The translations under genes were made by a program, and so were the position numbers. From positions 304 through 64,303 of the forward strand of contig DATDWZ010000008.1 of NCBI GenBank assembly GCA_036517295.1: a stretch of 64,000 bases of DNA, given 5' to 3'. The DNA comes from Minisyncoccota bacterium. Lineage in GTDB: Bacteria; Patescibacteriota; Minisyncoccia; Phycocordibacterales; DATDWN01. The notes under the pieces were generated by a model. It had not been told where the DNA came from, did no database searches, and saw only the letters and a program-made list of their open reading frames with translations. Of the stretch, positions 23,555 through 58,838 are shown one piece after another. Position 1 is the stretch's first letter. Each line of letters begins with the position of its first letter.

Positions 23555-23627
23555 GAGAGACTAGTGAGCGCGTCGGCGCGAACTCAAGGAAAATTTTAGC
23601 AAAAATTTATCCGTATCTCTCAGAGAG
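23555..23627. repeat. Copy 1 of ~73-nt structured repeat (closing stem gagagac/gtctctc; internal hairpin cgcg-tcgg-cgcg; conserved AACTCAAGGAAAATTTTAGCAAAAATTTATCCG)
   Basis: Second copy at 58766-58838 in opposite orientation. The internal hairpin there is gctc-gacg-gagc, a compensatory change that keeps the pairing. Confidence 0.5.
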
Positions 23628-23661
23628 ATAGTGTGAGAAAGAGATTTTCTCTATACAAGTC

Positions 23662-24906
23662 TTACAAAATTTTCAAAGCATCCTCAACCGACATCAATTC
23701 CGAATCTGCGGATGTCCTCATCTTCACTTCAACCTTATTCTCAGCAACGGTCTTATCGCTAACCACAAACCGAACCGGAATACCTATAAGGTCAGAATCT
23801 GCGAATTTCTCTCCCGGTCGTATATCCCGGTCATCATAGAGTACAGGAATTCCCCTCTTTCGCAAATCGGCATATAAGTTGTCTGTAAAAGAGACTACTG
23901 CCTCGTTTACACCGAGTCTCACTAGATGGACCACAAACGGAGCAACTTCTTTCGGCCAAACCATACCTTTGTCGTCGGAAAGAAGTTCAACAATTGTACC
24001 CATAAGTCGTCCGAGGCCAATACCATAAGCTCCAAGAACAACGGTACTTTCTTTACCATTTTCTTCTTTAAAATTAAGACCGAGCTCGGTAGTATAACGA
24101 GTACCATATTTGAATATATTTCCAACTTCGATTGATTTCGCCTCTACCAATGTTTCTTTTTTTAATCCTAATCCTTGTAAAATATCATTCTGCATAACCT
24201 CGTCATTTACAGCCAAACTTTTTTCTTTATCTATAAAAATATGATCCTCCCCAGCATCACAAATCGTCTGAAATTCGTGACTGAATTTACTAAACATTCC
24301 TCCTGAGGCAAAAGTTAAATAAGTTTTATCTCCAATCCCCACCCGGTTATATACATTTTTATATGCTCGAATAGCTTTTTCATAGAACGCATCTAACTCC
24401 TTCTGATTTCTATTGAAAGAGTACATGTCTTTCATTAGAAATTCTCTCCCACGCATTATTCCGGACTTTGACCTTAGTTCATTTCTAAATTTTGTCTGGA
24501 ATTGATGTGTATACCTAGGCAAATCACGATATGAACTAATGTGATCCTTCATCATTCTTACCATTGGTTCTTCGTGAGTACAGCCAAGCCCAAGCTCCGT
24601 ATCATTTTTTAATTTTGTCTTAAACCATACATCAACTTTTTCGTCGCTCCATCTATCGGTTGCTTTCCATATCTCTGGATCCTGAAGTGTTGAGAGAGAT
24701 ACTTCTTCACTACCAATCGCTTCCATTTCCTCTCTAATGATTTTTCTAAGGTTATTGATTACCCTTAAACCTAGAGGTAAGTAATCATAAACTCCAGCCA
24801 TTTCTTTGTGTATAAATCCAGCTTTAATAAGAAGCTGGGCGTTCTTTGAAACCTCATCGGACGGAGCTTCTTTACGGGTTTTTGTAAAAAGTTGTGATTG
24901 TTTCAT
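23662..24906 (-). CDS. proS: Proline--tRNA ligase (short form lacking editing insertion)
   Basis: Class II motifs. KNAQLLIKAGFIHKEMAGVYDYLPLGLRV N-terminus. The likely start is MKQSQLF at 24906. Confidence 0.85.
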   Translation of the reverse strand: MKQSQLFTKTRKEAPSDEVSKNAQLLIKAGFIHKEMAGVYDYLPLGLRVINNLRKIIREEMEAIGSEEVSLSTLQDPEIWKATDRWSDEKVDVWFKTKLKNDTELGLGCTHEEPMVRMMKDHISSYRDLPRYTHQFQTKFRNELRSKSGIMRGREFLMKDMYSFNRNQKELDAFYEKAIRAYKNVYNRVGIGDKTYLTFASGGMFSKFSHEFQTICDAGEDHIFIDKEKSLAVNDEVMQNDILQGLGLKKETLVEAKSIEVGNIFKYGTRYTTELGLNFKEENGKESTVVLGAYGIGLGRLMGTIVELLSDDKGMVWPKEVAPFVVHLVRLGVNEAVVSFTDNLYADLRKRGIPVLYDDRDIRPGEKFADSDLIGIPVRFVVSDKTVAENKVEVKMRTSADSELMSVEDALKIL

Positions 24907-25003
24907 CCCGTTAGAGTTTATGTTTATATATTCTAGCAAATAAAATAAATTTATCTGAATACTGTGACAACGGTGTCTCCGAAACGAGTAAGACTCTAAC
25001 GGG
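24907..25003 (-). repeat. Copy C of ~100-bp leader/MITE-like element (CCCGTTAGAGTTTA ... GACTCTAACGGG) abutting the proS start codon
   Basis: TIRs. Internal TAGAATATATAA. Ends exactly at ATG 24906. Confidence 0.55.
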
Positions 25004-25032
25004 ACAAGTCACTACATATTATAGCAAAAAAG

Positions 25033-25086
25033 AGAGAGGGTCAAAAAAACTCCTGGGCCGTAGGGCGCCAAGCTTTTGGCTTGGCT
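25033..25086 (-). terminator. Strong hairpin (ccgtaggagccaagc-caaaa-gcttggcgccctacgg) + U7 on minus strand; A7 on plus (bidirectional-capable)
   Basis: Long GC stem followed by TTTTTTT on the minus strand, 200 nt downstream of the rseP stop. Confidence 0.5.
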
Positions 25087-30478: not shown

Positions 30479-32386
30479 ATGCGAATTCTTACAGTCATAC
30501 CCATCAGCAAGGGCATATCCAAAGACACCCTGACCTACTTCACAAGCAAGGATGTGAGTACTGGCTCCATAGTCTCAATCCCCCTCCGAAACAAAACTAT
30601 TTACGGACTGGTAACCGCAAGCAAGGTGGCTCAGGAAATAAAATCCGAACTAAAATCGCTTTCGTACAGTATAAAAAAGATAGAGAAAATAGAGGCCAGA
30701 AACTTTTTGTCAGATGGTTTTATCGAGAGCGCACAGAAAATTGCAGATTATAACGCCGGAAGTGTCGGTGCCGTTTTGTCCGCTCTTATCCCGCGGACCA
30801 TACTGGAAGAAAGCGAGAAGTTGTCCTACACTCCACTGCAAACTCCAAAAAATACATTTCATGAAACCGTACTCCTACAATCGGATGATGAGGAAAGATA
30901 CGCAACATACAGAAGTCTCATACGTGAAGAATTTGCCAAGAATCGAAGCGTTTTTTTCTGTCTACCAACGACCGAGGATTTATTGAACGCCAAATTAACC
31001 CTAGAAAAAGGCATAGAAAAATATACATACATGTTACATTCCGGTTTGTCGAAAAAAGAACTCGTTGGTCTTTGGCAGAACATTATAGACGAACCACACC
31101 CACTGCTTATTATCGCCACAGGTTCTTTCTTGTCTCTACCCCGTCATGATCTCGGCACTATCATATTGGAAAAAGAAAGCTCGCGCGCATACAAAATGCA
31201 GGTGAGGCCGTTCATAGATATCCGTAGTGCCGTAGAAATAATAACCAAACAATTAAGTGTTCGCCTGGTGCTGGGTGATTTATTGCTTCGTACCGAAACG
31301 CTATGGGAAGAAAAGAATGGTCGATACGCGGAACTGTCCCCCCTCAAGTTCCGCTCACTTACAACGGCTGGATGCGAACTTGTCAGCATGCGCGTACCGC
31401 AGGATATGAAGAAAAAAGAGTTCACGATATTTAGTGATAAATTGAAAGATATGATTCGTGAAGCAAAAGAAAACAACGAACACACATTTTTATTTTGTGG
31501 ACGAAAAGGCCTGTACCCCGTAACTGTTTGTAGTGATTGTGGAACCGTTGTGGTGTGTAAAAATTGCAACGCCCCGGTGGTTTTGTACGGCCCTGCTTCG
31601 CGCAAGGCTACGCAGGGTAAGAGAAGCTTGTTCGTATGTAACCATTGTGGAGAGAGGCGTGATGCGGAAGAGTTGTGCGCGCATTGTGGAGGTTGGAGAC
31701 TGAATCCTATGGGACTGGGTATTGATAGGGTAGTCGAAGAAATTAAATCCATGATTCCAGAAGCTAATATAGTACTCATGGACAAAGACCATGTAACTAC
31801 CCATAAACAAGCGGTCAAGGCACGCGACCTTTTTTATTCCACCCCGGGCAGTGTTATGGTCGGCACAGAAATGGCCGCCACCTATCTTAATGAAAAAATA
31901 GAAAATGTGGCTGTCATTTCAATAGATTCATATTTTTCCATACCGGATTTTCAGGTGAATGAAAAAATATTCCATATTCTTTTGGGGCTGCGAGCTTTGG
32001 CAGAGAAAAATCTCCTGTTTCAGACGAGACAAGAGAATACCAAAATATTCGACTATGCTTTGCGCGGAAATCTTCTGGATTTTTATCGTGATGAAATAGA
32101 AGAGCGGGAGTCAATCGGCTATCCACCTTTTGTAACATATATAAAACTCAGTCTTGAAGGAGAAAAAAATGACATAAAAAAGGAAATGGCTAATATTGCT
32201 GACCAGATGAAACCGTACGAGGTCAATATCTTTGATGCATTCAATCCGGGCGGAAAATTAAAGTACACCATACACGGGCTTTTATCTCTCCCACACGGCA
32301 AATGGATGGATAAAATACTTTTGGATAAACTAAGAACGCTTCCACCGCATGTAGCGGTCAGAATAGACCCCGTCACGCTTTTGTGA
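30479..32386 (+). CDS. priA: Primosomal protein N' (PriA) homolog with degenerate helicase motifs I/II/III
   Basis: N-terminal 3'-DNA-binding domain. Cys-rich region CSDCGTVVVCKNCNAPVV...CNHCGERRDAEELCAHCG. C-terminal domain present. At the Walker A position it reads QSDDEERYATY instead of GxGKT. It reads LEKES instead of DEEH and VLGDLL instead of SAT. Confidence 0.8.
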   Translation: MRILTVIPISKGISKDTLTYFTSKDVSTGSIVSIPLRNKTIYGLVTASKVAQEIKSELKSLSYSIKKIEKIEARNFLSDGFIESAQKIADYNAGSVGAVLSALIPRTILEESEKLSYTPLQTPKNTFHETVLLQSDDEERYATYRSLIREEFAKNRSVFFCLPTTEDLLNAKLTLEKGIEKYTYMLHSGLSKKELVGLWQNIIDEPHPLLIIATGSFLSLPRHDLGTIILEKESSRAYKMQVRPFIDIRSAVEIITKQLSVRLVLGDLLLRTETLWEEKNGRYAELSPLKFRSLTTAGCELVSMRVPQDMKKKEFTIFSDKLKDMIREAKENNEHTFLFCGRKGLYPVTVCSDCGTVVVCKNCNAPVVLYGPASRKATQGKRSLFVCNHCGERRDAEELCAHCGGWRLNPMGLGIDRVVEEIKSMIPEANIVLMDKDHVTTHKQAVKARDLFYSTPGSVMVGTEMAATYLNEKIENVAVISIDSYFSIPDFQVNEKIFHILLGLRALAEKNLLFQTRQENTKIFDYALRGNLLDFYRDEIEERESIGYPPFVTYIKLSLEGEKNDIKKEMANIADQMKPYEVNIFDAFNPGGKLKYTIHGLLSLPHGKWMDKILLDKLRTLPPHVAVRIDPVTLL

Positions 32387-32539
32387 TAAATTAGGGGAAA
32401 TTGAGAATAATTCTTTCTCACCATATCCTTTTTGGAGTACGCACTTTTTTTGGTAAAAAAGATGCTCGAATCCTCGCGCCGACGGGCTTCTGAGCCTCCA
32501 AAAAGGACACGGCTCAAAGAATTATTCAATTTTATTTAA

Positions 32540-33082
32540 ATGAAAAAAATACTACAAAAAGACTCGCCCATATTACGACAGAAATCTCTGGAGGTTCCGG
32601 TGAAAGATATTAGTTCACCTAAAATCAAAAAGGTTATAAGGGAAATGAAGGAAGCGTTGAACTCCCAGGATGACGGCGTGGCTATCGCTGCTCCGCAGAT
32701 TGGGTATTCCCTTCGGATATTTATCGTCTCAAAGAAGGTCTTTGAGATAAATAAAGCAGTCAAGGAAAATCCTAGGGGGATTAGTTCAACTGGTCTTGTT
32801 TTTATAAATCCGGTCATAAAAAAAGTATCGAAGGAAAAGAAAGGATTGGAAGAAGGGTGTCTGTCGGTTAGATTTTTATACGGTAAGGTTGAGAGAAGTA
32901 ACAAAGCCACCATATCGGCATACAACGAGGCCGGTAAAAAATTCGAAAGGGGCGGAACGGGACTCTTGGCCCAAATATTCCAACACGAAGTGGATCACCT
33001 GAACGGAATCCTGTTTATCGACAAAGCAAAGAGTCTGGAAGAACTGCCACCTGGGCATGGTATAGATGAACCAAAAAAATAA
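32540..33082 (+). CDS. def: Peptide deformylase
   Basis: EGCLSV and QHEVDHLNG metal-binding motifs. Confidence 0.9.
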   Translation: MKKILQKDSPILRQKSLEVPVKDISSPKIKKVIREMKEALNSQDDGVAIAAPQIGYSLRIFIVSKKVFEINKAVKENPRGISSTGLVFINPVIKKVSKEKKGLEEGCLSVRFLYGKVERSNKATISAYNEAGKKFERGGTGLLAQIFQHEVDHLNGILFIDKAKSLEELPPGHGIDEPKK

Positions 33083-34478: not shown

Positions 34479-34597
34479 ATACATACTATTATACACTGTC
34501 AAAAAAGGCCGACAAGGAATTGCATTACTTCATATTTTTGCTATTATCTCTAAGTGCATAAAAAATGCATATGTTAATTTGAAAACGGTTAGTAAGC

Positions 34598-34915
34598 TCC
34601 GGTGTAGCTCAGTGGTAGAGCAATCGCCTGTACCGAAAGGTTGTGCAGCTTCCTAAAGTAATTTAGGATGAAAAATGAGGTGAATTCGGGGAACCCCACA
34701 GTTTAATAGCTGAGGGCAATCCCGAGCCAAGTCCCGAGAGAAATCGAGGGAAAGGTGTAGAGACTATCTCGTAAGAGAGTAGCCGTCACGCAAGTGAGTA
34801 GGCGAAGCGCCCCACATCCCACTCAGAAATGAAGGATGATGATATAGTCCAGACCAAAGGCAACTTTGGATAAAATGTAAGCGATTGGTCGTAGGTTCGA
34901 TCCCTACCGCCGGAG
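34598..34915 (+). tRNA. tRNA-Asn(GUU) interrupted by a group I intron in the anticodon loop (exons 34598-34631 and 34878-34915; CCA not encoded)
   Basis: Acceptor tccggtg/cgccgga (U1-A72, G73 as in Asn). D-arm gctc-agtggta-gagc. Anticodon stem atcgc/gcgat with loop CUGU|UAA after splicing. T-arm gtagg-ttcgatc-cctac. 5' exon ends in U; intron ends in G. Confidence 0.7.
34632..34877 (+). ncRNA. Group I intron (IC3-like, tRNA anticodon-loop type), ~246 nt
   Basis: Conserved core strings AAUCCCGAGCCAAGUCCCGAGAG (cf. AAUCCUGAGCCAAGCCGAAG), AAGGUGUAGAGACUA (P7; cf. GGUGUAGAGACUA) and UCGGGGAACCCC. Ends with omega-G. Confidence 0.7.
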
Positions 34916-36562
34916 CAATGGTCGTGAAAGAGGTATAATTTGCCTCTGTCGTGGCTTTACCAGGGACTTTTTTGAGGTTCGAAAATGATTTCGAGGCTCC
35001 GGAAGTTCCACAAATGGTTGAGAACTCGTTTTTAACAAGGAACCGCCAGCCGTAAGGGTTTTGGTGGTTTTTTGTGCTTGTTCGAAAGTTTTCTCTTGAT
35101 CTAGTCGTTGCTGTACTCTTTCCGCAAGTTTCTGAACTGGAGTTTTCATTGTCGGAGTTACTTCTTTATCTGTAAGTATTAAGTTCGAAAAGATATGACT
35201 CAAAAGTAATCTTCTGTCTTCGGGAGACCTTTTCTCGTATATCTCTCTTGCTCTCCTAGCAAGGTCAATTATATTCAACCAGATTTCAAAATACTTTGCT
35301 TCTTCAGTCTTAATCCTACCAAGTTGTTCTATCACAGCATTTTGCTCTTCTATTATTTCCTTATTTTTTATCTCCCAACGCTCTCTTGTAATTCTCTCAT
35401 CAAGACGGTCATCATATACGTTATCTAAACGTCTCTGTAGTGAGCTGTAGCGGTCGTTAAGCCCCTTGATAGCACTTTCCTTGTACTCTATCTCTTGGGC
35501 GTGGTTTTCCTTAATTTTAACCTTAATTTGCTCTGCCTCTTCTGGTGTTATGGTTTCAAAGAACTTAAAGACTCCAAAGAGTTTGTCTTCGAGTTCCTTT
35601 TCCGGTGCATACTTTTTCTGAGAGCAGTTTCGGTAATGATTGCAGTGATAATAGACTATTCCTTTCTGTATTTCTGCCGTAATAGTCCCACTACATTCTC
35701 CACAGATAAACATTTTTCTAAATTGAAACTCGTGGCGGTTAAAGTGAGGAGTCTTTTTACCCATTCTAATATCTCTAACCTTTTCAAATAACTCTTTGGT
35801 GATAAGGGGTTCGTGAGACCCATTACTAAAAACCTCATCATTCCATTCCATCGCTCCATAGTAAAAAGGATTATTAAGAATACTCTCAATAACACTTTTT
35901 ACCATCTTCTTACCAGATCGAGTCCGAAATCCCTCTTTGTAAAACATCTCAATCACGGCTTTCATAGAATAGTTACCAGAACCATAAAGTTCAAACATCC
36001 TTTTTACGAATGGAGCGATTTCTTGATCTATTATGTGTGTTTTATGTCCCTTCTCACCAATGGTTTTATATCCGAGTGGAGGTTTTGTTGGTAACCACCC
36101 TTGAGCAAGTTTTTCTTTCTGACCCTTTTTTACCTCTTCAGATAGATTTGAAATAAACTTCTTAGCTAGAACTATTTCAATATCCCAGCGAAACTTTTCG
36201 TCAGATTTAGCGTTCTTATGGATAATCAGATTTTGCTTAACAAAATGTATTTGCCTAGAAACATCTCCCTCAACCCAATCGTTAATCGCTAGTGCTTCCT
36301 TGAAGTTGCGAGTAAGTCTATCTACTTTCTCACAGAGTAATATATTTACTTTATTTTTTTCCAAAAACTCTAACATTTCTGCAAAAACCACTCGTTGTTT
36401 TGCACCACTTGCTGACTCTGCAATCGAAAAGACTTTTATCATCTGAAAATCTTTTCGCTGAGCATATTCCTCCATAAGTTTAACCTGTGATGGCAAAGAA
36501 TAACCTGTTTCTTCTTGTTCTTTTGATGAAACTCTACAATAACTAACTGCTTTTATTTTCAT
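34904..36562 (-). CDS. Large serine recombinase (resolvase catalytic domain + recombinase domain + zinc ribbon + coiled coil)
   Basis: YCRVSSKEQ catalytic Ser motif. Recombinase domain. CGECSG...YYHC zinc ribbon. Long coiled coil. The 3' end overlaps the tRNA-Asn 3' end. Confidence 0.85.
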   Translation of the reverse strand: MKIKAVSYCRVSSKEQEETGYSLPSQVKLMEEYAQRKDFQMIKVFSIAESASGAKQRVVFAEMLEFLEKNKVNILLCEKVDRLTRNFKEALAINDWVEGDVSRQIHFVKQNLIIHKNAKSDEKFRWDIEIVLAKKFISNLSEEVKKGQKEKLAQGWLPTKPPLGYKTIGEKGHKTHIIDQEIAPFVKRMFELYGSGNYSMKAVIEMFYKEGFRTRSGKKMVKSVIESILNNPFYYGAMEWNDEVFSNGSHEPLITKELFEKVRDIRMGKKTPHFNRHEFQFRKMFICGECSGTITAEIQKGIVYYHCNHYRNCSQKKYAPEKELEDKLFGVFKFFETITPEEAEQIKVKIKENHAQEIEYKESAIKGLNDRYSSLQRRLDNVYDDRLDERITRERWEIKNKEIIEEQNAVIEQLGRIKTEEAKYFEIWLNIIDLARRAREIYEKRSPEDRRLLLSHIFSNLILTDKEVTPTMKTPVQKLAERVQQRLDQEKTFEQAQKTTKTLTAGGSLLKTSSQPFVELPEPRNHFRTSKKSLVKPRQRQIIPLSRPLLRR

Positions 36563-36600
36563 ATATATATTTATATTATCACTTTTTAATAATCAGCTAC

Positions 36601-36770
36601 AGTCCGACTTCTACCTTCTGATACTATCAACAGGTAGTGGACTCTTATGTATCAGATAACTATGAGCGAGTTTTGTGATAACCTTTTCGTAAATTATTTT
36701 ACGTTTTATATATCCAACCCCGTTCTGAACTATTCCGATACTCTTCAGATGGCAGGGCGAGAAGTCGGAC
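36601..36770. repeat. Long-range inverted repeat agtccgacttct ... agaagtcggac(a) flanking ~150 nt immediately upstream of the recombinase gene (candidate att/recombination site or structured RNA)
   Basis: 11/12-bp inverted repeat at 36601-36612 and 36760-36770. Confidence 0.3.
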
Positions 36771-36818
36771 ACTCGTTTTCCCTGCTTTCGCAAGAGTACC
36801 TGAACACCCCTTATAGGA

Positions 36819-37091
36819 CTAAACGTCCTGTTTTAAAGAACAAGTTTTACCTGATGTCCTTATAGCAGGTTTGTTATCTAAATTGTCTTCCGTTTGCGAC
36901 ACGGGCTCTCTGGGGTTGGTCAAAGAGCTTGTGTCGATAACCGAATATTCGTTTTTCTTATCTTCGTAATCAAACCTTGATAACAAATCAAAGAAAGACG
37001 CCAACCCATTTATTTCTTCTCCGCTCAAAATTGAACTAACAGATTTTTCTGTATCAACTTCATTATTAAAGTTTTGAGATTTCACTGTCAT
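36819..37091 (-). CDS. Hypothetical acidic protein (90 aa)
   Basis: ORF only. Lies between the recombinase and the RM genes. Confidence 0.3.
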   Translation of the reverse strand: MTVKSQNFNNEVDTEKSVSSILSGEEINGLASFFDLLSRFDYEDKKNEYSVIDTSSLTNPREPVSQTEDNLDNKPAIRTSGKTCSLKQDV

Positions 37092-37099
37092 TTCAATTT

Positions 37100-37140
37100 T
37101 TGATAAACAAAAACACCACCCTTTTAGGTGGTTAATTTAC
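37100..37140 (-). terminator. Intrinsic terminator downstream of res (accacc-cttttag-ggtggt + U-tract on minus strand)
   Basis: Hairpin plus TTTTTGTTT on the minus strand. Confidence 0.5.
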
Positions 37141-37287
37141 GTACAGCAAAAGAGCCCCTTGATTGGGTAACTGTATCGGATTATTTAGTAGAGCGAAGTT
37201 TCCATCGGAAACTCACAGTAGCTTGATAACTTAATTATACCCTTTCACAACAGAATAGCAATCACATCTTATCCACTTATTCTATAC

Positions 37288-39699
37288 CTAGAACAAGTCC
37301 TCAAACGGTCTCCATTCCTTACTGTCATTTACTGACTGTCTTTCCCTAAAGGAATACTTCGGACTATCGTTGTAATACCAAAGTCCTGCTTCTTGTACCG
37401 CAATACCACCTACAAACTTTTTACCAAATTGCTTGAGCTTAGCTTGCAATGATTTTGCCTTATCAGCGGTATCTGTACTTGTTGCGGTATCTCCTTTCTT
37501 CGTATCAAAAATACCTATACGACCATCAGAGAAGCGAATAATCCAGTCAGGATAAAACAGGTTTTCTTCTTTTGTTGATGAGTTTGTATATTTAATGCCT
37601 AGATAGTTTTTTCCTTGATCGCCGTTTTTGAACCACCAATCAATCTTCCCTTTTTTCTTTTCCAAGTACTCGACAAAAGCAATTTCATTTTTGCGTCCAT
37701 TATAATCTTCTAATAAGTAGAACTTGTCTAATACACATAACTTTTGAGGGACAACCTTATAATCTTCAGGATACCGATATTCTTCTTGTATAGTAAAAGT
37801 ATATGCTTGCTGTTCTTCTATCTTCTTTTTCTTGTCAGTGAGTAAACTATCTGAAATTGGTTTGTAAGCTCTAAGTGCCTTTGTTATTGCCGGACGAAAC
37901 TTACTTTCAGTACCTTTACGAATATCTTTAATAAATATCTTGTACCAAAAAATATGGTCATCAAGTAAAACTGTCTTAAACCAAACACGAAGTGCTTGTT
38001 TTAACACTGACCAAGAACGAGCTATGTTAGAGTATCTAGCTTTGTCGTCTTCTTGTTCTTTCAAGATTTGGTAACAAAGATAGTTGAATGTTTTTTCAAC
38101 ATCACTCACTGACATTTCAAGAGAAACATCACTACCTTTCTTTTTGAAATCAAAAGCAAGGTTATCGTAGTCCTCAAAACGAGCATTGGCTATAACTTCA
38201 TTTACTAAAGTATTACTAAGATCCAGCCCTGCCTTTTTTAATTTTATCTCTGATTTACCTAAAATATCTTTCTCACTAATACCAAAATGCTTGTTTAATT
38301 CTATTCTAAAAACTTTTTGGAACTCTGAAGATACACGAATATCTCCGTAATCTAAGCGAGAAATATAATCAGAAGGCAACTCTATATTACTTATTCCTTT
38401 TTTTATATGTGCAGTTTCTGTAAGAGCTTTATTCGCAGGGTTTTGATCTGGTATTACTACTTCCTTACGCTTATAGTTTGTATATAGATAACCCAATCGG
38501 AGGTTAGGATTATTTTTGTAATCTTCTTTTGCTTGAGGTTCAGGCATTCGCAAAATACGCCCAACAGTTTGAGTATAAAAAGTATTTGATTGTATCTCTC
38601 TAAACATCACAAGTACCGATGCACGAGGACAGTCCCAACCATTACCAGCAGTTTGTTTGAAGATCAGAAAATCGTGTTCATCGTCATTTTCTTCTAGCCC
38701 CTTCGGTTTATCTTGTCCCTTAGACCATTTTGCAATTTTATGTTCAGGTACTTTCATTCTAACAAGATAATCTGTAACAATTTTTTCCTTTGTCTGTTCG
38801 CCTTTTTCTATTAACTTACTGTCGTCATTCGGTATTTGTATTAACATTAAAGGATTTATTTCTTTCCCGAGTGCCTTAAGTTCAGCTTTTAATTCTTCTC
38901 TTTTATTTATTCCATTTTCAAGAAGAACTCTATCAAGGTCTTTACCGGACATACCCTTAAAATCTTCATCTGTTTGAGTAACAATAGCTTCTTTTATTAA
39001 ACCTTGATCAACCACTTCTTTTCTTGGGACTTCATAATAACTACCAAGACGGCGAGCATCCAGTTCGTCATCTCGGTTTGGTGTAGCTGTAATGTGAAGA
39101 ATTACCTTAGGATCAATCATCTCGATAATATCCTTTGCGAGCCTCGTGTCTTTGTTTTTATGGGCTTCATCAATAACTAAAATAATCTGCCTGCCATCAG
39201 CGTGTGTTTGCTCAATTACATCCTCAAAGTATTTACCCGTTTCTTTTATCCACTCTTCATCTTCAGGACGGCGAAGTAATCTTGTTTCTGCACTTTTAGC
39301 AGTAACTTTTTGCCAATTCAAAAACAAAATATCATTTTGATATAGTTTGCCTTGATTTATATCTGCAACAGTCAAAGCTCTGTTTTCAAGCATATTTTCA
39401 AAATACTCAAGAAACTTACCTTTACTTTGCATAGCCAAATCATCACTGAAAGTAATCCAAATAAATGCCTTGTCTTCTTTCCATTGTGGTAAATGATTAA
39501 GGCCACGAATAAAGAGTGAGGTCATAAAGGTTTTACCGCTACCAGTTGGCGATTTGAAAACAATAGGTAATTGTCTGCCTTGTTGTTTCCATATCGCTAC
39601 AAACATATCTGTAAGATTTTCTACAGCAGTTTTTTGGAATTGTAATGGATTAAATGTTTTCATATTAAATAATATTGTATATTTGCTTGTATACCTCAA
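37288..39699 (-). CDS. res: Type III restriction enzyme Res subunit (SF2 helicase + C-terminal PD-(D/E)xK endonuclease)
   Basis: KSPTGSGKTF (motif I), LVIDEAHKN (DEAH), ITATPN (motif III). C-terminal PDWIIRF...IGIFDTKKG nuclease motif. Confidence 0.85.
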   Translation of the reverse strand: MRYTSKYTILFNMKTFNPLQFQKTAVENLTDMFVAIWKQQGRQLPIVFKSPTGSGKTFMTSLFIRGLNHLPQWKEDKAFIWITFSDDLAMQSKGKFLEYFENMLENRALTVADINQGKLYQNDILFLNWQKVTAKSAETRLLRRPEDEEWIKETGKYFEDVIEQTHADGRQIILVIDEAHKNKDTRLAKDIIEMIDPKVILHITATPNRDDELDARRLGSYYEVPRKEVVDQGLIKEAIVTQTDEDFKGMSGKDLDRVLLENGINKREELKAELKALGKEINPLMLIQIPNDDSKLIEKGEQTKEKIVTDYLVRMKVPEHKIAKWSKGQDKPKGLEENDDEHDFLIFKQTAGNGWDCPRASVLVMFREIQSNTFYTQTVGRILRMPEPQAKEDYKNNPNLRLGYLYTNYKRKEVVIPDQNPANKALTETAHIKKGISNIELPSDYISRLDYGDIRVSSEFQKVFRIELNKHFGISEKDILGKSEIKLKKAGLDLSNTLVNEVIANARFEDYDNLAFDFKKKGSDVSLEMSVSDVEKTFNYLCYQILKEQEDDKARYSNIARSWSVLKQALRVWFKTVLLDDHIFWYKIFIKDIRKGTESKFRPAITKALRAYKPISDSLLTDKKKKIEEQQAYTFTIQEEYRYPEDYKVVPQKLCVLDKFYLLEDYNGRKNEIAFVEYLEKKKGKIDWWFKNGDQGKNYLGIKYTNSSTKEENLFYPDWIIRFSDGRIGIFDTKKGDTATSTDTADKAKSLQAKLKQFGKKFVGGIAVQEAGLWYYNDSPKYSFRERQSVNDSKEWRPFEDLF

Positions 39700-41350: not shown

Positions 41351-41352
41351 AT

Positions 41353-42005: not shown

Positions 42006-42296
42006 AGTTATAATTATACTTTACTATTCTTTACAAGCCAAACTCACGAAGTGGACAACCTTATGAACACAACATAATAAAAATAGTATTGGCAGATCAA
42101 TAACCTATGATATAATTCACCCACAACTGAATAAGCAGACCTAACCCTATAGTTTTTATTATAGGTATGGTTGCAGGTCGTATAAGGCACAAAGAACCCA
42201 TCGCAGGGTCGCCTTATACGCCTTATCGGGAAACCGGTATGAGGGACTTCGGTCTCTACCTGTGGTGGGCTTTTTGTATATAAAAATAGTAAAATT

Positions 42297-43271: not shown

Positions 43272-43274
43272 AAT

Positions 43275-43646: not shown

Positions 43647-43663
43647 TACCGAATATAGTAAGT

Positions 43664-44065: not shown

Positions 44066-44075
44066 CTTTTTTTAT

Positions 44076-44831: not shown

Positions 44832-45039
44832 CTTGTTCTAATTTATTTTCCCCTATTGAAGAAAAAACGCCACCAGAAATAGCCCTCTCAATTTGATCTA
44901 AAGCACTGTTAGTTGAGAGTTTTTTTATCTCTTTCTTTTCACTCAACAGATCATTTGGATTTCTACTAAAATCAAACTTTACTAACTCTGCGTTAGGTAA
45001 TTTGCCTTTTGAACTATATTTTTCTTCTTCTTTTGTCAT
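44803..45039 (-). CDS. Small hypothetical protein overlapping the PIN-like gene start (antitoxin-like position)
   Basis: 78 aa. 29-nt overlap with the downstream PIN-like ORF. Confidence 0.3.
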   Translation of the reverse strand: MTKEEEKYSSKGKLPNAELVKFDFSRNPNDLLSEKKEIKKLSTNSALDQIERAISGGVFSSIGENKLEQDGHRTNTAE

Positions 45040-45176
45040 AGTGGTATTATACTACACAAAAAGCAAACTTTTTATTTGTTCCAATGCTATGTTGGGATAT
45101 GGGTATTCCTTAATCCAATCTATCGTTCTAAAATCGTCCGCCAGAGCGAGCTTAATAACTGTTTTGTAAGATTCAA

Positions 45177-45500
45177 ATGACAGAACCGACACATGTAGCG
45201 GTTGACTTAGGAGTTTTTCTTATATTGATGCAGATAGGTAGTTTAAATCCGAACTACACAGATTTATCGCTTATTATTGGTTCGAATCTTGTTGATTTGG
45301 ACCACTTATTCTCTCGACCTATTTACCAGCCAGGAAGAGATTCATTTAAAACCCATTTCCTCTACAAACAATGGAAAATGGTATTACTTTTATCAATACT
45401 TATGTTGTTTGTCAGGCCATTAATGTTTCTGGGCATTGGTCTGGTTCTTCACTTTTTCTTAGATTATCTGGATACAATAAAAGAGAAAATCCATCTCTAA
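45177..45500 (+). CDS. Small membrane protein, possibly YdjM/DUF457-like metal-dependent hydrolase
   Basis: N-terminal MTEPTHVAVDLGVFL (His-containing start typical of DUF457). Two TM segments. Confidence 0.35.
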   Translation: MTEPTHVAVDLGVFLILMQIGSLNPNYTDLSLIIGSNLVDLDHLFSRPIYQPGRDSFKTHFLYKQWKMVLLLSILMLFVRPLMFLGIGLVLHFFLDYLDTIKEKIHL

Positions 45501-45636
45501 TTTAATCCTGCTCCAATTCAGAATTTGGATACCCTAAATAAAAAGTTCGTAGGGGTTATAAAACCAGTATCAACTGGAAAGCCTAGGCGTTGATCATTTG
45601 ATATTTTTCGGAATGTTTAATGTATAATTAAACTCT

Positions 45637-46017
45637 ATGAATAAACAAACCAAGTTATTCCTTGAAATAATATTCTCCATCGCTTTCGTCCTCGTCGGCA
45701 CATATTTTGTATATGGACAATTGGAATTCGTAAATTCCTTTTGGAATGCGCAAAGTATTTGGAGTTCCATTTTGGCGATTGGATGGATTATTGTTTCCCT
45801 TGGATATTTTCATCAAGGTTGGCTCATTCATGAAAAAAGAAATGCCCACAATGTATCTGCCCTACTCCCAATAGCAGTATTTTTTATACAATGCATCTTA
45901 TTTGTGAAAGGCATCTACTATCACGACTGGTCACTGATTTGGGGTGCTTTAGTAGTAAACTCCGGAGTGGTTTTTAGTCTATACCATATAATTAGAGCGA
46001 ACAGGAAAAAATTATGA
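45637..46017 (+). CDS. Polytopic membrane protein (4 TM), unknown
   Basis: Hydrophobic profile. TGTATAAT -10-like hexamer upstream. Confidence 0.5.
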   Translation: MNKQTKLFLEIIFSIAFVLVGTYFVYGQLEFVNSFWNAQSIWSSILAIGWIIVSLGYFHQGWLIHEKRNAHNVSALLPIAVFFIQCILFVKGIYYHDWSLIWGALVVNSGVVFSLYHIIRANRKKL

Positions 46018-52243: not shown

Positions 52244-52342
52244 AATATTTATGTTATTTTTTAATTATGTATAATCCTACACACTAAGACGAGACGGAAA
52301 CCGCTGTATTACAGGTGTATAATTATAATTTTGTTATAATGG

Positions 52343-52451
52343 AGTAATGAATCCCGTTAGAGTTTAACTGGGCTCGGAGATGTTGTAATCATACTAATGA
52401 GGTTAAATAGGCTTTAATGTACTAAAATATATAATGATAAACTCTAACGAG
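52343..52451 (+). repeat. Copy B of ~100-bp leader/MITE-like element (CCCGTTAGAGTTTA ... TAAACTCTAACGAG) abutting the ytxJ-like ATG
   Basis: About 85% identical to copy A over the full length in the same gene-relative orientation. Ends exactly at ATG 52452. Confidence 0.6.
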
Positions 52452-52781
52452 ATGAACTATTTTTATGAAACCCCATATCTGTCGGAAATAACAGAAAAAT
52501 CTCACAGTGAAACGGTTATGATTTTTAAACACTCCTCCACCTGCACCGGAAGTGTTAAATTATATAAAAAACTGGAGGAACTAATGGAGAAGGGCGATTG
52601 GAAAACTCCGGTTTATCTAGTAACGGTTCAAGTATACCCAACATTATCAAAAAACATATCCGAAATATTTGATATAAAACATGAAAGCCCGCAAATAATA
52701 GTTTTAAAATCCGGAAAAGTCTTATATGAAGCCCATCACAACCAAATAGATATAGAAAATCTTATTAATTCACGAATGTAG
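52452..52781 (+). CDS. YtxJ-like monothiol thioredoxin-fold protein (bacillithiol-system YtxJ/DUF2847 family)
   Basis: MIFKHSSTCTGS (TCxxS) and HESPQIIVLKSGKVLYEAHHNQID match the YtxJ pattern. Confidence 0.65.
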   Translation: MNYFYETPYLSEITEKSHSETVMIFKHSSTCTGSVKLYKKLEELMEKGDWKTPVYLVTVQVYPTLSKNISEIFDIKHESPQIIVLKSGKVLYEAHHNQIDIENLINSRM

Positions 52782-56345: not shown

Positions 56346-56422
56346 CGCTCCTGGGGAACTTGGAGTGACCATTCACTCTGTCTATAATCTAATACTATAT
56401 AAAGCAATATGCAAACATAGAC

Positions 56423-57187
56423 TTATGCACAGTCTTCGGTGCTATACTCCCCCACTTTTACCCTTTTTATATGAAAAGTTGTAGCTTTTACGCCTAAACT
56501 CTCGGCCAAATCAGAAACGAACTGCCTAACATAAAACCCGCTCGAAACAGTTATGGAAATTTTATCAATTAGAAAGATGTCAAAGAGACTCTTTGACATA
56601 AGTTCCTGCCATTGTTTTATTATTTCCTCTTGCCTGAAATCACCGGAAACGGAATTTATATTTCTTACGATATATCGTAAGAGATCATCTTTTACAATCT
56701 CTCGTCGTGATACAAAATCCACGGAATGAACCTCAACCTCATGACTCGGTATTTCAATCTCATTCAATTTCCCTTCCCTAGCCCATTGAAAAAGTGGCTT
56801 ACTGTCCACAGGCTTCGACGAATATGCCGGATACTTTTGTTCAAACTTACCAACAAACTTTTTTAACTCTTTTTTTAAATCTTTCCTAGACACTAAATGC
56901 TGACTACTAACCCCTACTCGACCTAAAAGGTCGAGTGTATCCGTCTCAAATCCCCATAAAATCTCAAACTCATATATTTTTGGTAACCCTAAATACTCAT
57001 CCTTTTTCTTTATCTCCTCACCTGACAAAACTAAAAGTAGCCCTTCTGCCATAGGATCCAGTCGCCCGGCATATGTCATTACCACATCCGAATACTCCGG
57101 ATTCTCCTTTTTGAACCTTAAAATTACCTCGTTTGGTGTCTCTCCAATATTTTTATACAGCAGATGGACACCACTATTTTTTTTCAT
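56423..57187 (-). CDS. truB: tRNA pseudouridine(55) synthase TruB
   Basis: AGRLDPMAEGLLLVL (catalytic Asp motif), HLLYKNIGETP N-terminus. Confidence 0.8.
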   Translation of the reverse strand: MKKNSGVHLLYKNIGETPNEVILRFKKENPEYSDVVMTYAGRLDPMAEGLLLVLSGEEIKKKDEYLGLPKIYEFEILWGFETDTLDLLGRVGVSSQHLVSRKDLKKELKKFVGKFEQKYPAYSSKPVDSKPLFQWAREGKLNEIEIPSHEVEVHSVDFVSRREIVKDDLLRYIVRNINSVSGDFRQEEIIKQWQELMSKSLFDIFLIDKISITVSSGFYVRQFVSDLAESLGVKATTFHIKRVKVGEYSTEDCA

Positions 57188-57209
57188 ATATTCTGTTACA
57201 ATAACCCAT

Positions 57210-58154
57210 ATGTCAGATAAATCAAAACCAGAAAACAAAATCAGCACTGAACCGTATAAAGGTGTTCGAGATTTCTATCCGGAAGACATGGCTGTTCAAA
57301 ATTATATTTTTGACACATGGAAAAAAGTGGCCAAAGAAGCCGGCTTTGTAGAATACTCCGCATCCATCCTTGAACCTGCCGAACTGTACAGAGCAAAAAC
57401 TGGCGAGGAAATAGTAAACGAGCAAATGTTCACTTTCACGGATAAGGGTGAGCGGGAGATTGCTCTGCGTCCAGAAATGACCCCAACCTTGGCCCGAATG
57501 ATTGCAGGAAAACGAAAATCTCTCAAATTCCCCCTCCGATGGTTCTCTATCCCGAATCTTTTCCGGTACGAGAGACCTCAACGAGGGCGAAAACGTGAAC
57601 ACTGGCAGTTGAATTGCGATATTATGGGCATAGCTGACCTCTCGGCAGAAGTAGAGACTATTTCTCTAGCTCACGCCATTATGAAAGCCTTCGGGGCGAA
57701 AGACAAGGACTTCGTGATACGAATAAACGACAGAAAACTCCTGAACGAAAAATTTGGGAACGAAAAAGCCATAAAACTTCTCGACAGAAAAGATAAAATG
57801 TCTGCTGAAGAGTTCGATCAAAAATGGAGTGAAGTATCATCGGAACCTTTTGACCCGAATATCGAACCGAACGAGACTATTAAAAAACTTATCGATGGTC
57901 TGAATAAAAAAGGGATAGCAAATGTCATCTTCGATACAACCATAACTCGTGGTTTTGACTACTACAACGGCGTAGTCTTTGAAGTTTTTGATACGGACCC
58001 AGCAAACAACCGCTCACTCTTTGGTGGCGGACGGTATGATAACCTCTTGGAGATTTTTGGCGTAGAACCAATACCGACTATCGGCTTCGGTATGGGAGAT
58101 ATTACTATACGAGACTTTCTCGAAACGCACGGCTTACCAACATGCGAAAAGTAG
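57210..58154 (+). CDS. Histidyl-tRNA synthetase catalytic-core protein lacking the C-terminal anticodon-binding domain (HisRS/HisZ-like)
   Basis: Motif 1 region (KGVRDFYPED). HisA (FTFTDKGEREIALRPEMTP). Motif 2 (FRYERPQRGRKREHWQLNCD). Motif 3 (GGGRYDNL...GFGMGDITIRDF). The protein ends about 12 aa later. Confidence 0.7.
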   Translation: MSDKSKPENKISTEPYKGVRDFYPEDMAVQNYIFDTWKKVAKEAGFVEYSASILEPAELYRAKTGEEIVNEQMFTFTDKGEREIALRPEMTPTLARMIAGKRKSLKFPLRWFSIPNLFRYERPQRGRKREHWQLNCDIMGIADLSAEVETISLAHAIMKAFGAKDKDFVIRINDRKLLNEKFGNEKAIKLLDRKDKMSAEEFDQKWSEVSSEPFDPNIEPNETIKKLIDGLNKKGIANVIFDTTITRGFDYYNGVVFEVFDTDPANNRSLFGGGRYDNLLEIFGVEPIPTIGFGMGDITIRDFLETHGLPTCEK

Positions 58155-58723
58155 TTTTTGATATCGAAACAAAGAATATTTTTCAAGATGTCGGGTCAAA
58201 CAACCCGGAGGATTTGGATATATCGGTCGTAGGAGTATACGATTACGAAACGGATAAATACCTGACCTTTTTGCAGGAAGAATTCGACAAGATGTGGTCG
58301 TTTTTCAAAAAAGCCGATGTTATAATCACATTCAACGGCGAGTACTTCGATATCCCCCTTCTGAACAAATACTACAAAAAAGCAGGCCACGGCGACCTAA
58401 AGAATATTCGCTCTCTTGATATTTTCAAAGAAGTGAAACAGACCTCCGGCAGATGGTTGAAATTGGATAAAATAGCCGAAGGGACTTTTGGTATAAATAA
58501 AGTCGGCGACGGCCTGGAAGCGGTAAAATGGTGGCGGACCGGCGAGATAGATAAAATAAAGAAATACTGCACGGAGGACGTAAAAATCACGAAGGATGTC
58601 TATGAATTCGCTCTTAAAAATAAAAAGATAATGTATAAAGAAGGACCTTTCGTTAAGGAAATAAAACTTGAAACGAAACACTGGGAGCCAATCGCGGAAG
58701 TAAAAACGCAAAGTTTGTTTTAG
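58142..58723 (+). CDS. DEDDy-type 3'-5' exonuclease (RNase H-like fold)
   Basis: VVFDIETKN (Exo I DxE), ITFNGEYFDIPLL (Exo II), YCTEDVKITKDVYE (Exo III YxxxD). Confidence 0.7.
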   Translation: MRKVVFDIETKNIFQDVGSNNPEDLDISVVGVYDYETDKYLTFLQEEFDKMWSFFKKADVIITFNGEYFDIPLLNKYYKKAGHGDLKNIRSLDIFKEVKQTSGRWLKLDKIAEGTFGINKVGDGLEAVKWWRTGEIDKIKKYCTEDVKITKDVYEFALKNKKIMYKEGPFVKEIKLETKHWEPIAEVKTQSLF

Positions 58724-58765
58724 AGACCACTCACGTCCGCTAAATTTCTTTCTCATAATATTTTT

Positions 58766-58838
58766 CAGAGAGACGCGGATAAATTTTTGCTAAAATTTTC
58801 CTTGAGTTCGCTCCGTCGAGCCTCACTAGTCTCTCTTC
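58766..58838. repeat. Copy 2 of the ~73-nt structured repeat (reverse orientation relative to copy 1)
   Basis: See 23555-23627. The hairpin gctc-gacg-gagc replaces cgcg-tcgg-cgcg. Confidence 0.5.

What the first reader, a model, noticed from the sequence alone, without database searches (positions are those of the whole stretch)
23555..58838. Two-copy ~73-nt structured repeat with a compensatory stem change
Copy 1 at 23555-23627 and copy 2 at 58766-58838 (reverse orientation) share gagagac-TAGTGAG-[hairpin]-AACTCAAGGAAAATTTTAGCAAAAATTTATCCG-(t/c)(a/g)tctctc. The outer 7-8-bp stem is conserved. The inner hairpin is cgcg-tcgg-cgcg in one copy and gctc-gacg-gagc in the other. Both stem strands changed yet pairing is retained, the hallmark of a structure under selection. 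The single-stranded 33-nt segment is near-identical. One copy sits in the mreB operon promoter/leader region, the other in a convergent-terminator region. This is a candidate small RNA motif or protein-binding structured element.
Basis: seen in the sequence. Interest (0 to 1): 0.55.

Follow-up and report, generated by a model that had tools for sequence, protein, structure and literature searches.

The report
Dispersed structured hairpin repeat of Paceibacterota
The two-copy repeat is real, but it is part of a previously undescribed family of about 125-base elements scattered between genes of tiny "candidate phyla radiation" bacteria, in which one strand folds into a long hairpin capped by a three-way junction kept by strong compensatory evolution; what it does is still unknown.

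Summary
Both copies exist at the stated coordinates, and the 33-nt core is identical (0 chance matches expected). The description is incomplete. Each copy is about 125 nt (23527-23652 +, 58740-58865 -), and the "single-stranded" 33-mer is mostly a hairpin. The window also holds a third copy (32404-32528 -) and a probable fourth (11457-11678 -).

Pattern scans and a covariance model recovered about 30 distinct homologs, all but one in MAGs labelled Parcubacteria/Paceibacterota (one labelled Saccharibacteria) or in unlabelled metagenome contigs, roughly one per 30 kb. None appeared in Rfam 15, phage, plasmid or E. coli collections.

The fold is a three-helix rod with tandem GA loops, capped by a junction with hairpins P2 and P3. 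95% of cells pair, and 45 of 47 pairs show changes on both sides. G-U outnumbers A-C 65 to 15, so one strand ("X") is the selected one.

X usually runs antisense to its neighbours, with its 3' end beside a convergent gene's stop codon (20 vs 4). So it is not an mreB leader. Copies are gained, lost, inverted in place and duplicated identically.

Best reading (about 0.4): a REPIN/ERIC-like mobile or self-maintaining element recognised as a folded single strand. Rivals are a multi-copy small RNA, a terminator, an RT-linked element and a ribozyme.

The parts
23527..23652 (+). Copy 1, whole element on the X (folding) strand. It fills the proS-mreB intergenic region and runs antisense to both genes.
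   Evidence: Fold -53.4 kcal/mol, z = -6.3; the reverse strand gives only -41.9. CM R1 135.6 bits, R2 139.4 bits. Flanking ORFs are mreB 22449-23510 (-) and proS 23662-24939 (-).
23554..23622 (+). Copy 1 junction domain. Inner P1 helix is 23554-23561 with 23615-23622. P2 is 23563-23584 (AGU-GA-GCGC-GUCG-GCGC-GA-ACU). P3 is 23588-23612 (10 bp, bulged A, AGCA loop).
   Evidence: Dot-bracket structures. Column-to-position mapping from alignment A3. Per-pair covariation.
58740..58865 (-). Copy 2, whole element with X on the minus strand. Its 3' end lies 15 nt from the stop codon of the convergent RNase-H-fold exonuclease gene (58142-58723 +).
   Evidence: Fold -41.8 kcal/mol (126 nt), z = -6.2. 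The 150-nt stretch gives -52.8, against -44.4 on the other strand. CM 138.2 and 140.6 bits. Pfam RNase_H_2 for the neighbouring gene.
58767..58836 (-). Copy 2 junction domain. Inner P1 helix is 58829-58836 with 58767-58774. P2 is 58805-58827 (GCUC-GACG-GAGC with one extra G). P3 is 58777-58801.
   Evidence: The exact 33-mer match lies at 58776-58808.
32404..32528 (-). Copy 3, a divergent member. It has the same rod and three-way junction but different helix sequences. It fills the priA-def intergenic region, antisense to both genes.
   Evidence: CM 60.0 bits (R1) and 84.5 bits (R2). Fold -55.6 kcal/mol, z = -7.3, versus -43.6 on the other strand. ORFs. The orthologous site in L026 is empty, with a 13-nt gap.
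11457..11678 (-). Probable copy 4. The P1 rod and the P3 hairpin (GCAAAAUUGC-ACCA-GCGAUUU-A-UGC) are conserved. P2 is expanded to about 110 nt. It lies between a PBP/ftsI-like gene and a murF-like gene, on the same strand as both.
   Evidence: CM R2 31.2 bits, E about 6e-5 with filters off. R1 partial hit on P3 only. Fold -74.5 kcal/mol, z = -4.8. ORFs.

Best explanation
The repeat belongs to a family of about 125-nt elements, called 'X' here, that are dispersed through the intergenic regions of Paceibacterota/Parcubacteria genomes.

One strand folds into a rod made of a 10-bp helix, a small loop, 2 bp, a GA/GA loop, a 10-bp helix, another GA/GA loop and an 8-bp helix. The rod is capped by a three-way junction with two hairpins. 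P2 is a GC-rich hairpin with an internal tandem GA loop and a GNCG loop, and it can expand. P3 is a 10-bp hairpin with a bulged A and an ANYA loop.

I think X is a non-autonomous, REPIN/ERIC-like mobile or self-maintaining element. Its folded single strand, RNA or possibly single-stranded DNA, would be recognised by a trans-acting protein through the conserved junction and GA loops. On this view it spreads, inverts and is homogenised among intergenic sites. The host tolerates it mainly in the orientation where host mRNAs carry only the weaker reverse complement just after a stop codon.

Shown here: the fold, the strand specificity, the family, the orientation bias and the turnover. Inferred: the mobility mechanism, the protein partner, and whether the active form is RNA or DNA.
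For: Family and fold. There are 9 genome hits and 14 metagenome hits to the core pattern, plus divergent hits from the covariance model. 95.1% of 1256 cells pair. 45 of 47 pairs change on both sides, 0 of 500 shuffles reach this, and slid controls pair at 34-62% (11-sequence MAFFT alignment).

Strand. G-U/U-G 65 versus A-C/C-A 15, p = 1.4e-8. The X strand folds better than its complement in all but one copy.

Not gene-specific. Neighbours include proS-mreB, priA-def, ftsZ, rplJ, fusA, nusB-rnc, rpoD, efp, nusA and a DGR RT.

Turnover. The proS-mreB site is filled in the window and in L004 but empty in L025, L026 and L027. The priA-def site is filled in the window and empty in L026. RT-pilC is filled in L028 and empty in L035. 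At nusB-rnc the whole element is inverted between two close relatives, L008 and L024; the copies are 95% identical and their differences preserve the structure. L002 and L009 are identical copies at unlinked loci of one MAG, and the identity stops exactly at the element ends.

Orientation. The gene within 60 nt of X's 3' end is convergent in 20 cases and co-directional in 4, p = 0.0015.

No promoter signal lies upstream of X. That argues against ordinary stand-alone genes.
Against: No transposase, target-site duplication or conserved terminal sequence was found. The basal helix simply continues with variable, mutually complementary sequence.

Copies within one genome differ at 20-30% of stem positions, and these differences are fully compensated. 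Orthologous copies (window versus L004) also differ by 12 doubly compensated pairs. Both look like long-term selection on each copy in place, as for a functional RNA gene, rather than recent bursts of a parasite.

The expandable P2 domain (12 nt to about 51 nt to about 110 nt) is typical of structured RNAs.

Homologs were found with an exact core pattern, so the conservation of the core is partly a result of how they were collected.

There are no expression data, and no whole genome could be scanned.
Confidence: 0.4

Rival explanations
1. X is a multi-copy small RNA gene family with a cellular role, for example a protein-binding scaffold. It would be transcribed or processed from the X strand, usually convergent with the upstream gene, and its own long hairpin plus U run would serve as a shared bidirectional terminator.
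For: Selection is strand-specific and independent of neighbour orientation. Compensated divergence occurs between copies of one genome and between orthologous copies. The conserved unpaired nucleotides lie only in the junction and loops, and P2 is expandable. The tail-to-tail arrangement with the neighbouring gene (20 vs 4) fits a convergent transcription unit.
Against: There is often only 11-38 nt between X's 5' end and the start codon of the divergent gene, which leaves no room for a promoter outside coding sequence. Extended -10 or -10 motifs are not enriched upstream of X compared with upstream of the complement. The consensus scans found no promoter on the X strand upstream of any of the three copies. 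Synteny is not conserved among relatives. X has no long single-stranded segment for base-pairing to targets.
Confidence: 0.28
2. X is a host cis-element. It would act as a bidirectional intrinsic terminator, or as a protective or processing hairpin at the 3' end of mRNAs, placed after stop codons.
For: The reverse complement lies 1-30 nt after a stop codon in most copies. The basal helix is A-run/UCUC...GAGA/U-run, so either strand ends in GAGAUUUU. Two copies sit back to back between convergent genes in L023, one behind each gene.
Against: The strand that host mRNAs usually carry is the one that folds worse. It has A-C mismatches and UC/UC loops where X has G-U pairs and GA/GA loops. A terminator does not need a conserved three-way junction with two specific loops. 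The terminator scan calls none at the three copies. Several copies sit inside apparent operons only 11-26 nt before the next start codon.
Confidence: 0.14
3. X is linked to a reverse transcriptase. It would be the 3'-UTR RNA of the Parcubacteria DGR-type RT, and the dispersed copies would be retro-copied, like a SINE.
For: In two independent DGR loci (RTs 68% identical, different neighbours), X lies 6-9 nt after the RT stop codon on the RT's strand. These are L028/L011 (118.6 bits) and L031 (70.6 to 84.1 bits). That orientation is otherwise the rare one. Retro-copying would explain X-strand selection on a master copy and dispersed copies that need no promoter.
Against: Four other loci of the same RT family leave only 17-72 nt after the RT, with no X. 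A fifth, L030, has an unrelated hairpin there. None of 37 viral DGR RT loci has X. No RT is found in the window or in the other X-bearing loci. The copies show no adenine-specific differences.
Confidence: 0.07
4. X is a new self-cleaving ribozyme class or another catalytic RNA.
For: It has a three-way junction with conserved junction nucleotides and tandem GA pairs that extend P2, as in domain 2 of the hammerhead (UGA...GAA). It is dispersed and multi-copy. If the sense RNA cleaved itself, that would explain the depletion of X in the mRNA-sense orientation.
Against: No Rfam ribozyme model matches even at E <= 10. The hammerhead core is not present: X has CUAGUGA rather than CUGAUGA, and the position equivalent to A14 covaries as a Watson-Crick pair. 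No cleavage site can be inferred.
Confidence: 0.04
5. X is a cis-regulatory leader or promoter element of the mreB operon.
For: Copy 1 lies 16 nt upstream of the mreB start codon.
Against: The selected strand is antisense to mreB. Relatives with 91-93% identical MreB lack the element and have an ordinary promoter-like motif there instead. Other copies flank unrelated genes.
Confidence: 0.02

Closest known systems
REP / REPIN elements mobilised by RAYT (Y1/HUH) transposases
   Same: Multi-copy, extragenic and found in both orientations. They function as a folded single strand. The hairpin is preserved over long times, and the copies of a genome form a diverse 'population'.
   Different: X has no GTAG head, and its arms are not themselves REP palindromes. 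X carries a conserved three-way junction cap and GA/GA loops. No RAYT gene was seen. X's orientation follows neighbouring genes.
ERIC / IRU (127-bp imperfect palindromes of enterobacteria) and Correia/NEMIS, RUP, BOX-type MITEs
   Same: Similar size (about 125 nt). They are imperfect palindromes in short, transcribed intergenic regions, are polymorphic for presence between relatives, and fold into long RNA hairpins.
   Different: X has no sequence similarity to them (no E. coli hit). X has no conserved terminal inverted repeats or TA duplication; its arms covary instead of being conserved. X has a branched, conserved apex. The host clade is different (CPR).
Integron attC sites (for example the 123-126-bp VCRs)
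   Same: Length is about 60-140 nt. They lie directly after a stop codon. The strand antisense to the gene is the structured, functional one. Structure is conserved more than sequence, and the apex can be branched.
   Different: X has no R''/R' core sites (RYYYAAC/GTTRRRY), no cassette arrays and no integrase. Its neighbours are housekeeping genes tens of kb apart. Its apex is conserved rather than variable.
Bidirectional intrinsic terminators
   Same: A hairpin flanked by an A run and a U run, lying between gene ends.
   Different: X is about ten times longer, has an AU-rich base, a conserved branched apex and strand-asymmetric pairing. It often lies inside apparent operons.
Hammerhead ribozyme (three-way junction)
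   Same: A three-way junction. Tandem G-A pairs stack on helix II with the UGA...GAA signature.
   Different: X lacks the CUGA uridine turn (it has CUAG). There are extra junction nucleotides before P3. No Rfam model matches.

Membership tests
Any Rfam 15 family | A covariance-model match at or near the gathering score | tested here: not met
   The whole window at gathering thresholds gave only a group I intron and LOOT. Copy 1 (E <= 10) and copy 2 (E <= 5) gave only noise-level hits of 18 bits or less.
REP/REPIN-RAYT | A 20-40-nt imperfect palindrome with a conserved 5' GTAG, and a REPIN made of two inverted REPs | tested here: not met
   The consensus from 27 copies has no GTAG head. The arms are single strands of one long helix, not palindromes themselves.
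REP/REPIN-RAYT | A RAYT (Y1 transposase) gene in the genome, flanked by the repeats | not tested
   Only about 383 kb of fragments were held. Flanking proteins scanned with Pfam were housekeeping genes or a DGR RT. No whole genome was available.
MITE (ERIC, Correia and similar) | Terminal inverted repeats conserved in sequence among copies | tested here: not met
   Arm sequences differ between copies and covary. 29 of the 30 P1 pairs change on both sides. In one MAG the stems of three copies share no sequence at all (L003 x2 and L007).
MITE (ERIC, Correia and similar) | A target-site duplication flanking the insertion | tested here: inconclusive
   The filled versus empty priA-def site shows an insertion of about 140 nt, with only weak AT-rich similarity between the flanks. 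Other flanks show no consistent direct repeat.
Integron attC | R''/R' core sites (RYYYAAC ... GTTRRRY) at the ends | tested here: not met
   The ends are AAAUCUC...GAGAUUU in the common type.
Integron attC | Arrays of cassettes next to an integron integrase | tested here: not met
   Copies are solitary, 10-26 kb apart in the window, and lie between housekeeping genes.
Intrinsic terminator | A short GC-rich stem followed directly by a U tract | tested here: not met
   The terminator scan found 0 sites at all three copies. The U run is part of the AU-rich basal helix.
Hammerhead ribozyme | The conserved core C3-U4-G5-A6-N7-G8-A9 ... G12-A13-A14, with helix III starting at A15.1-U16.1 | tested here: not met
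   The sequence is C-U-A-G-U-G-A. The A14 equivalent changes to G together with its partner (U-A to C-G in L013, L011 and L003b). Five more nucleotides precede P3. No Rfam hit.
Kink-turn / box C/D RNA | A 3-nt bulge followed by tandem G-A pairs, with box C RUGAUGA and box D CUGA | tested here: not met
   The loops are symmetric 2x2 GA/GA flanked by Watson-Crick pairs. UGAUGA occurs only in copy 1. In L004 the loop is replaced by UC/GA pairs.
TIGR-Tas stem-loop guide units / IS110 bridge RNA | Two unpaired 8-12-nt spacers flanked by box C/D motifs, in tandem arrays next to a Tas or IS110 gene (PMC12045711) | tested here: not met
   The variable 10-nt segments of X pair with each other. Copies are solitary, and no such neighbouring gene is present.
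DGR accessory RNA | Constant presence next to TR or RT in DGR loci | tested here: not met
   X is present after the RT in 2 of 7 loci of the close RT family and in 0 of 37 viral DGR loci.

The most novel reading that the evidence does not exclude
X is the structured 3'-end RNA recognised by the highly conserved DGR-type reverse transcriptase of Parcubacteria. On this reading the dispersed copies are retro-copied, which would make X a bacterial SINE-like element. Alternatively, X is a new abundant ribonucleoprotein RNA or ribozyme specific to these ultra-small bacteria. Either reading would explain selection on a strand that host genes do not transcribe.
Probability: 0.1. Interest if true: 0.85.

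Novelty: new member of a known kind. Interest (0 to 1): 0.6.

Why it matters
Paceibacterota and other CPR bacteria have genomes of about 1 Mb with very short intergenic regions and almost no described non-coding elements.

At about one copy per 30 kb, this structured element would be one of the most abundant non-coding features of these genomes. It often fills the whole space between essential genes such as proS-mreB, priA-def and ftsZ, so it must affect how the operons around it are transcribed and translated.

Its covariation support is as strong as that of well-established RNA families, and it is absent from Rfam. It would therefore make a ready-made new family with a working covariance model.

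The mismatch between the selected strand and the transcribed strand is a concrete puzzle. Answering it (a mobile single-stranded DNA element, an antisense RNA or a retro-element) would reveal something new about genome dynamics in uncultivated bacteria.

Tried and rejected
1. Rfam at gathering and at permissive E-values: no family matched.

2. Hammerhead, kink-turn / box C/D and sarcin-ricin-like readings of the junction: rejected on sequence and covariation.

3. A sigma-70 or extended -10 promoter upstream of X. My first impression by eye was wrong. Strict TGnTAnnnT motifs occur in 3 of 27 upstream regions of X, in 2 of 27 upstream of the complement, and at a background rate of 4.8%. TAnnnT counts are 36 vs 30. 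Consensus scans were negative.

4. A promoter on the reverse strand using the invariant TTGAGT...TAGTCT: considered, but it cannot explain the covarying helices.

5. Phage, plasmid and E. coli collections and viral contigs: no match.

6. Chassis-motif searches in the window (TGAGAAAGAGATTT and AAATCTCGTCGA): no extra copies. The hit at 38262 lies in coding sequence.

7. DGR association: followed through 7 cellular and 37 viral RT loci, and it is not a constant feature.

8. TIGR-Tas / IS110 analogy: rejected after reading PMC12045711.

9. Mutational bias as the cause of the G-U excess: X lies on the C-rich strand, which would predict the opposite.

10. Arm-to-arm gene conversion as a structure-free cause of covariation. 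It could keep the arms complementary (see the perfect, unique stems in MAG Gw_Eff_bin_316), but it cannot produce the 65:15 G-U versus A-C asymmetry.

11. The GC-rich block next to copy 2 as an RNA gene: no Rfam hit, and fold z = -1.1.

12. Literature searches for CPR/Patescibacteria structured RNAs, repeats or MITEs: nothing describes this element.

Full report
OBSERVATION. The 33-nt segment occurs exactly twice in the window, with no mismatch, against 0 matches in 100 shuffles. Aligned in register, the inner hairpin is GCGC-GUCG-GCGC in copy 1 and GCUC-GACG-GAGC in copy 2. That is one compensated pair (G-C to U-A), one loop change and a 1-nt indel.

- Most of the "single-stranded" 33-mer is itself a hairpin (P3: GGAAAAUUUU-AGCA-AAAAUUU-A-UCC).
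- Similarity and pairing continue outward to about 125 nt (23527-23652 on +, 58740-58865 on -).
- Those outer helices differ in sequence between the copies while staying paired.

Both 126-nt stretches fold into the same architecture: -53.4 and -41.8 kcal/mol, z = -6.3 and -6.2. Between the two window copies alone, 9 of 47 pairs are doubly compensated and 4 more differ through G-U.

ANATOMY. From the base upward the element has:
- a 7-10-bp helix, commonly AAAUCUC/GAGAUUU;
- a 1x2 loop, then 2 bp (UC/GA), then a 2x2 GA/GA loop;
- a 10-bp helix of variable sequence, then a second GA/GA loop;
- an 8-bp helix ending in conserved A-U and C-G pairs;
- a three-way junction.

The junction runs: one U; then P2 (AGU/ACU, tandem GA/GA, a 4-bp GC-rich helix, GNCG loop); then CAA; then P3 (10 bp with a bulged A and an ANYA loop); then two nucleotides back to P1.

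HOMOLOGS. A degenerate core pattern gave 9 true hits in species-representative genomes. Eight carry Parcubacteria, Paceibacterota or Zambryskibacteria labels and one is a MAG labelled Saccharibacteria. There was also one chance hit in a gammaproteobacterial MAG. A relaxed pattern gave 14 metagenome hits and none in viral contigs.

A covariance model built from 11 sequences (R1) then found divergent members in the same loci and in the window. These include 32401-32531 (-), L003 5739-5873, L008 3216-3383, L017 1885-2012 and two in L023. A second model from 27 sequences (R2) added a probable fourth window copy with a P2 of about 110 nt at 11454-11681 (-).

In loci fetched for other reasons (about 106 kb around mreB or RT genes) there are 3-4 copies. 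That is roughly one per 30 kb. The window itself comes from a Candidatus Paceibacterota MAG.

COVARIATION. On the MAFFT alignment of 11 sequences, 95.4% of cells pair and 30 of 47 pairs change on both sides. No shuffle out of 500 reaches this, and sliding the partners by 1-3 columns gives 31-60% pairing. On 27 model-aligned sequences, 95.1% of cells pair and 45 of 47 pairs change on both sides. That alignment is fitted to the model and so leans towards it.

One caveat applies. Most homologs were collected with an exact core pattern, which inflates the apparent invariance of the junction. The model-found divergent members show that the P2a, P2b and P3 helices and even the junction letters can change, while the architecture, the 3'-side GA, the GNCG and ANYA loops and the bulged A persist.

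WHICH STRAND. In the helices, G-U/U-G pairs number 65, against 15 A-C/C-A combinations (p = 1.4e-8). The internal loops are GA/GA on this strand and UC/UC on the other. The X strand folds 3-20 kcal/mol better than its complement in all but one copy. Mutation bias does not explain this, because X lies on the locally C-rich strand. So selection acts on the fold of one strand, either as RNA or as single-stranded DNA.

CONTEXT. The element typically fills a whole short intergenic region between housekeeping genes. Examples are proS-mreB, priA-def, ftsZ-trxB, upstream of rplJ, after fusA, typA, efp, nusA and rpoD, and nusB-rnc.

The X strand is usually antisense to its neighbours. The gene within 60 nt of X's 3' end is convergent in 20 cases and co-directional in 4 (p = 0.0015). 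On the 5' side there is no bias (10 vs 6). Host mRNAs therefore mostly carry the reverse complement, starting 1-30 nt after a stop codon. In L023, two copies sit back to back between convergent genes, one behind each gene.

No promoter-like signal distinguishes the region upstream of X, and no canonical terminator is called.

TURNOVER.
- The proS-mreB site carries X in the window and in L004, in the same relative orientation. It lacks X in L025, L026 and L027 (MreB 91-93% identical), which show a promoter-like motif there instead.
- The priA-def site is filled in the window. In L026 it is a 13-nt spacer with a Shine-Dalgarno-like AAGGAA. In the window a similar AGGGGAA remains on the far side of the hairpin.
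- RT-pilC is filled in L028 and empty in L035.
- At nusB-rnc, two close relatives (L008, L024) carry the element in opposite orientations. The two copies are 95% identical, and their differences are G-U-type or doubly compensated.
- L002 and L009 lie at unlinked loci of one MAG and are identical from AAATCTC to GAGATTTT but not beyond.
- In MAG Gw_Eff_bin_316, three copies have long, nearly perfect stems of unrelated sequence and no GA loops.

KNOWN FAMILIES. There is no Rfam match and no similarity in the phage, plasmid or E. coli collections. The hammerhead, kink-turn / box C/D, attC, REP/REPIN, MITE, TIGR/IS110 and intrinsic-terminator definitions each fail on at least one tested feature (see the membership table). 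Literature searches found no description of the element.

A LEAD THAT WEAKENED. In L011/L028, X lies 6-9 nt after a 346-aa reverse transcriptase and on the same strand. This RT is paired with bAvd and with a VR/TR repeat showing adenine-specific differences, so it is a diversity-generating retroelement (DGR). A second DGR whose RT is 68% identical has a divergent X in the same place (L031).

However, four further loci of this RT family have only 17-72 nt after the RT, and a fifth has an unrelated hairpin there. None of 37 viral DGR loci has X. Two of seven in the otherwise rare sense orientation is more than I would expect from overall occupancy; by my rough estimate p is about 0.003. But X is clearly not an integral DGR part. 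I keep this as an unexplained observation and as the basis of the novel case.

INTERPRETATION. The settled points are these:
- X is a real family of roughly 125 nt, supported by covariation.
- One strand is the selected one.
- The family is not tied to mreB.
- It shows an orientation bias relative to neighbouring genes.
- Copies are gained, lost, inverted and homogenised.

The function is not settled. I favour (0.4) a REPIN/ERIC-like mobile or self-maintaining element that is recognised as a folded single strand. On this view its sense orientation is selected against inside host transcripts.

The main rival (0.28) is a multi-copy small RNA. Compensated divergence of copies in place and an expandable P2 speak for it. 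The lack of room for promoters and the lack of synteny speak against it.

A pure terminator or mRNA-end role (0.14) conflicts with the strand asymmetry and with the conserved junction. RT-linked retro-copying (0.07) and a new ribozyme (0.04) are not excluded.

LIMITS. No expression data were available and no complete genome could be scanned. Collection scans were capped and based on exact patterns. Gene calls in the fetched loci are simple longest-ORF calls. E-values from the models are rough.

Noticed in passing
window 34596-34920 (+): A tRNA gene is split by the group I intron that Rfam reports at 34630-34870. The exons read ...ctccggtgtagctcagtggtagagcaatcgcctgt / aagcgattggtcgtaggttcgatccctaccgccggagca. 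ARAGORN finds no tRNA anywhere in the window. This matches a recent report of group I introns hiding tRNA genes in Patescibacteria (PMC13011429).
   Followed up: partly
window 34904-36562 (-) and about 35000-46000: A large serine recombinase (Pfam Resolvase + Recombinase + Zn_ribbon_recom) lies directly next to the intron-containing tRNA. It is followed by about 11 kb of lower GC (32-38% versus about 40-45%). This is probably an integrated phage or island at the tRNA.
   Followed up: no
window 42138-42257 (+): A LOOT RNA (RF03000, 72.9 bits) lies inside the low-GC block.
   Followed up: no
window 21525-21690 (-), 24885-25050 (-), 52305-52470 (+); shorter pieces near 13476-13509: A second repeat family of about 150 nt. 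It begins with a -10-like TGTGATATAAT and contains a long hairpin, CCCGUUAGAGUUUA...UAAACUCUAACGGG, that ends right at an ATG (for example the proS start). It looks like a shared promoter plus structured 5' leader. Rfam gives no hit at gathering thresholds.
   Followed up: partly
window 58950-59400: A block of about 450 nt with very high GC sits beside copy 2 in an AT-rich genome. It ends, on the minus strand, in a canonical terminator (ggcggagggactgcaaacctccgcctttttt). It has no Rfam hit, and its fold is no better than shuffles (z = -1.1). Its origin is unclear: a foreign fragment, a small gene or an assembly artefact.
   Followed up: partly
window 1-4000: The first 4 kb have 55-60% GC, against about 40% for the rest of the window. 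They contain ORFs of 304-382 aa. The composition suggests foreign or chimeric DNA.
   Followed up: no
L028 4931-7041, L030 5042-7008, L031 5044-7002: DGRs of related Parcubacteria share a fixed layout: target gene with VR, about 370 nt of non-coding DNA, TR, then bAvd on the opposite strand abutting the TR, then the RT. This leaves no room for a BPP-1-like spacer RNA directly after the TR. The RT family is unusually conserved (62-72% identity across several CPR classes).
   Followed up: partly
L025 900-956, L026 9950-10000, L027 9860-9895: Relatives that lack X upstream of mreB share the motif TTTTTTAAACATGTGCTAGTATA just before the gene. Together with CTAGAATATA in the window's leader repeat, this suggests a lineage-typical -10 region of the form TG-n-CTAG(T/A)AT.
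   Followed up: no
window 32386-32540 versus L026 270-284: In the filled priA-def site, a Shine-Dalgarno-like AGGGGAA lies before the hairpin and the def ATG lies 8 nt after it. If the hairpin folded in the mRNA, it would bring the two to normal spacing, as in the split ribosome-binding site of phage T4 gene 38 (recalled from memory, not tested).
   Followed up: no
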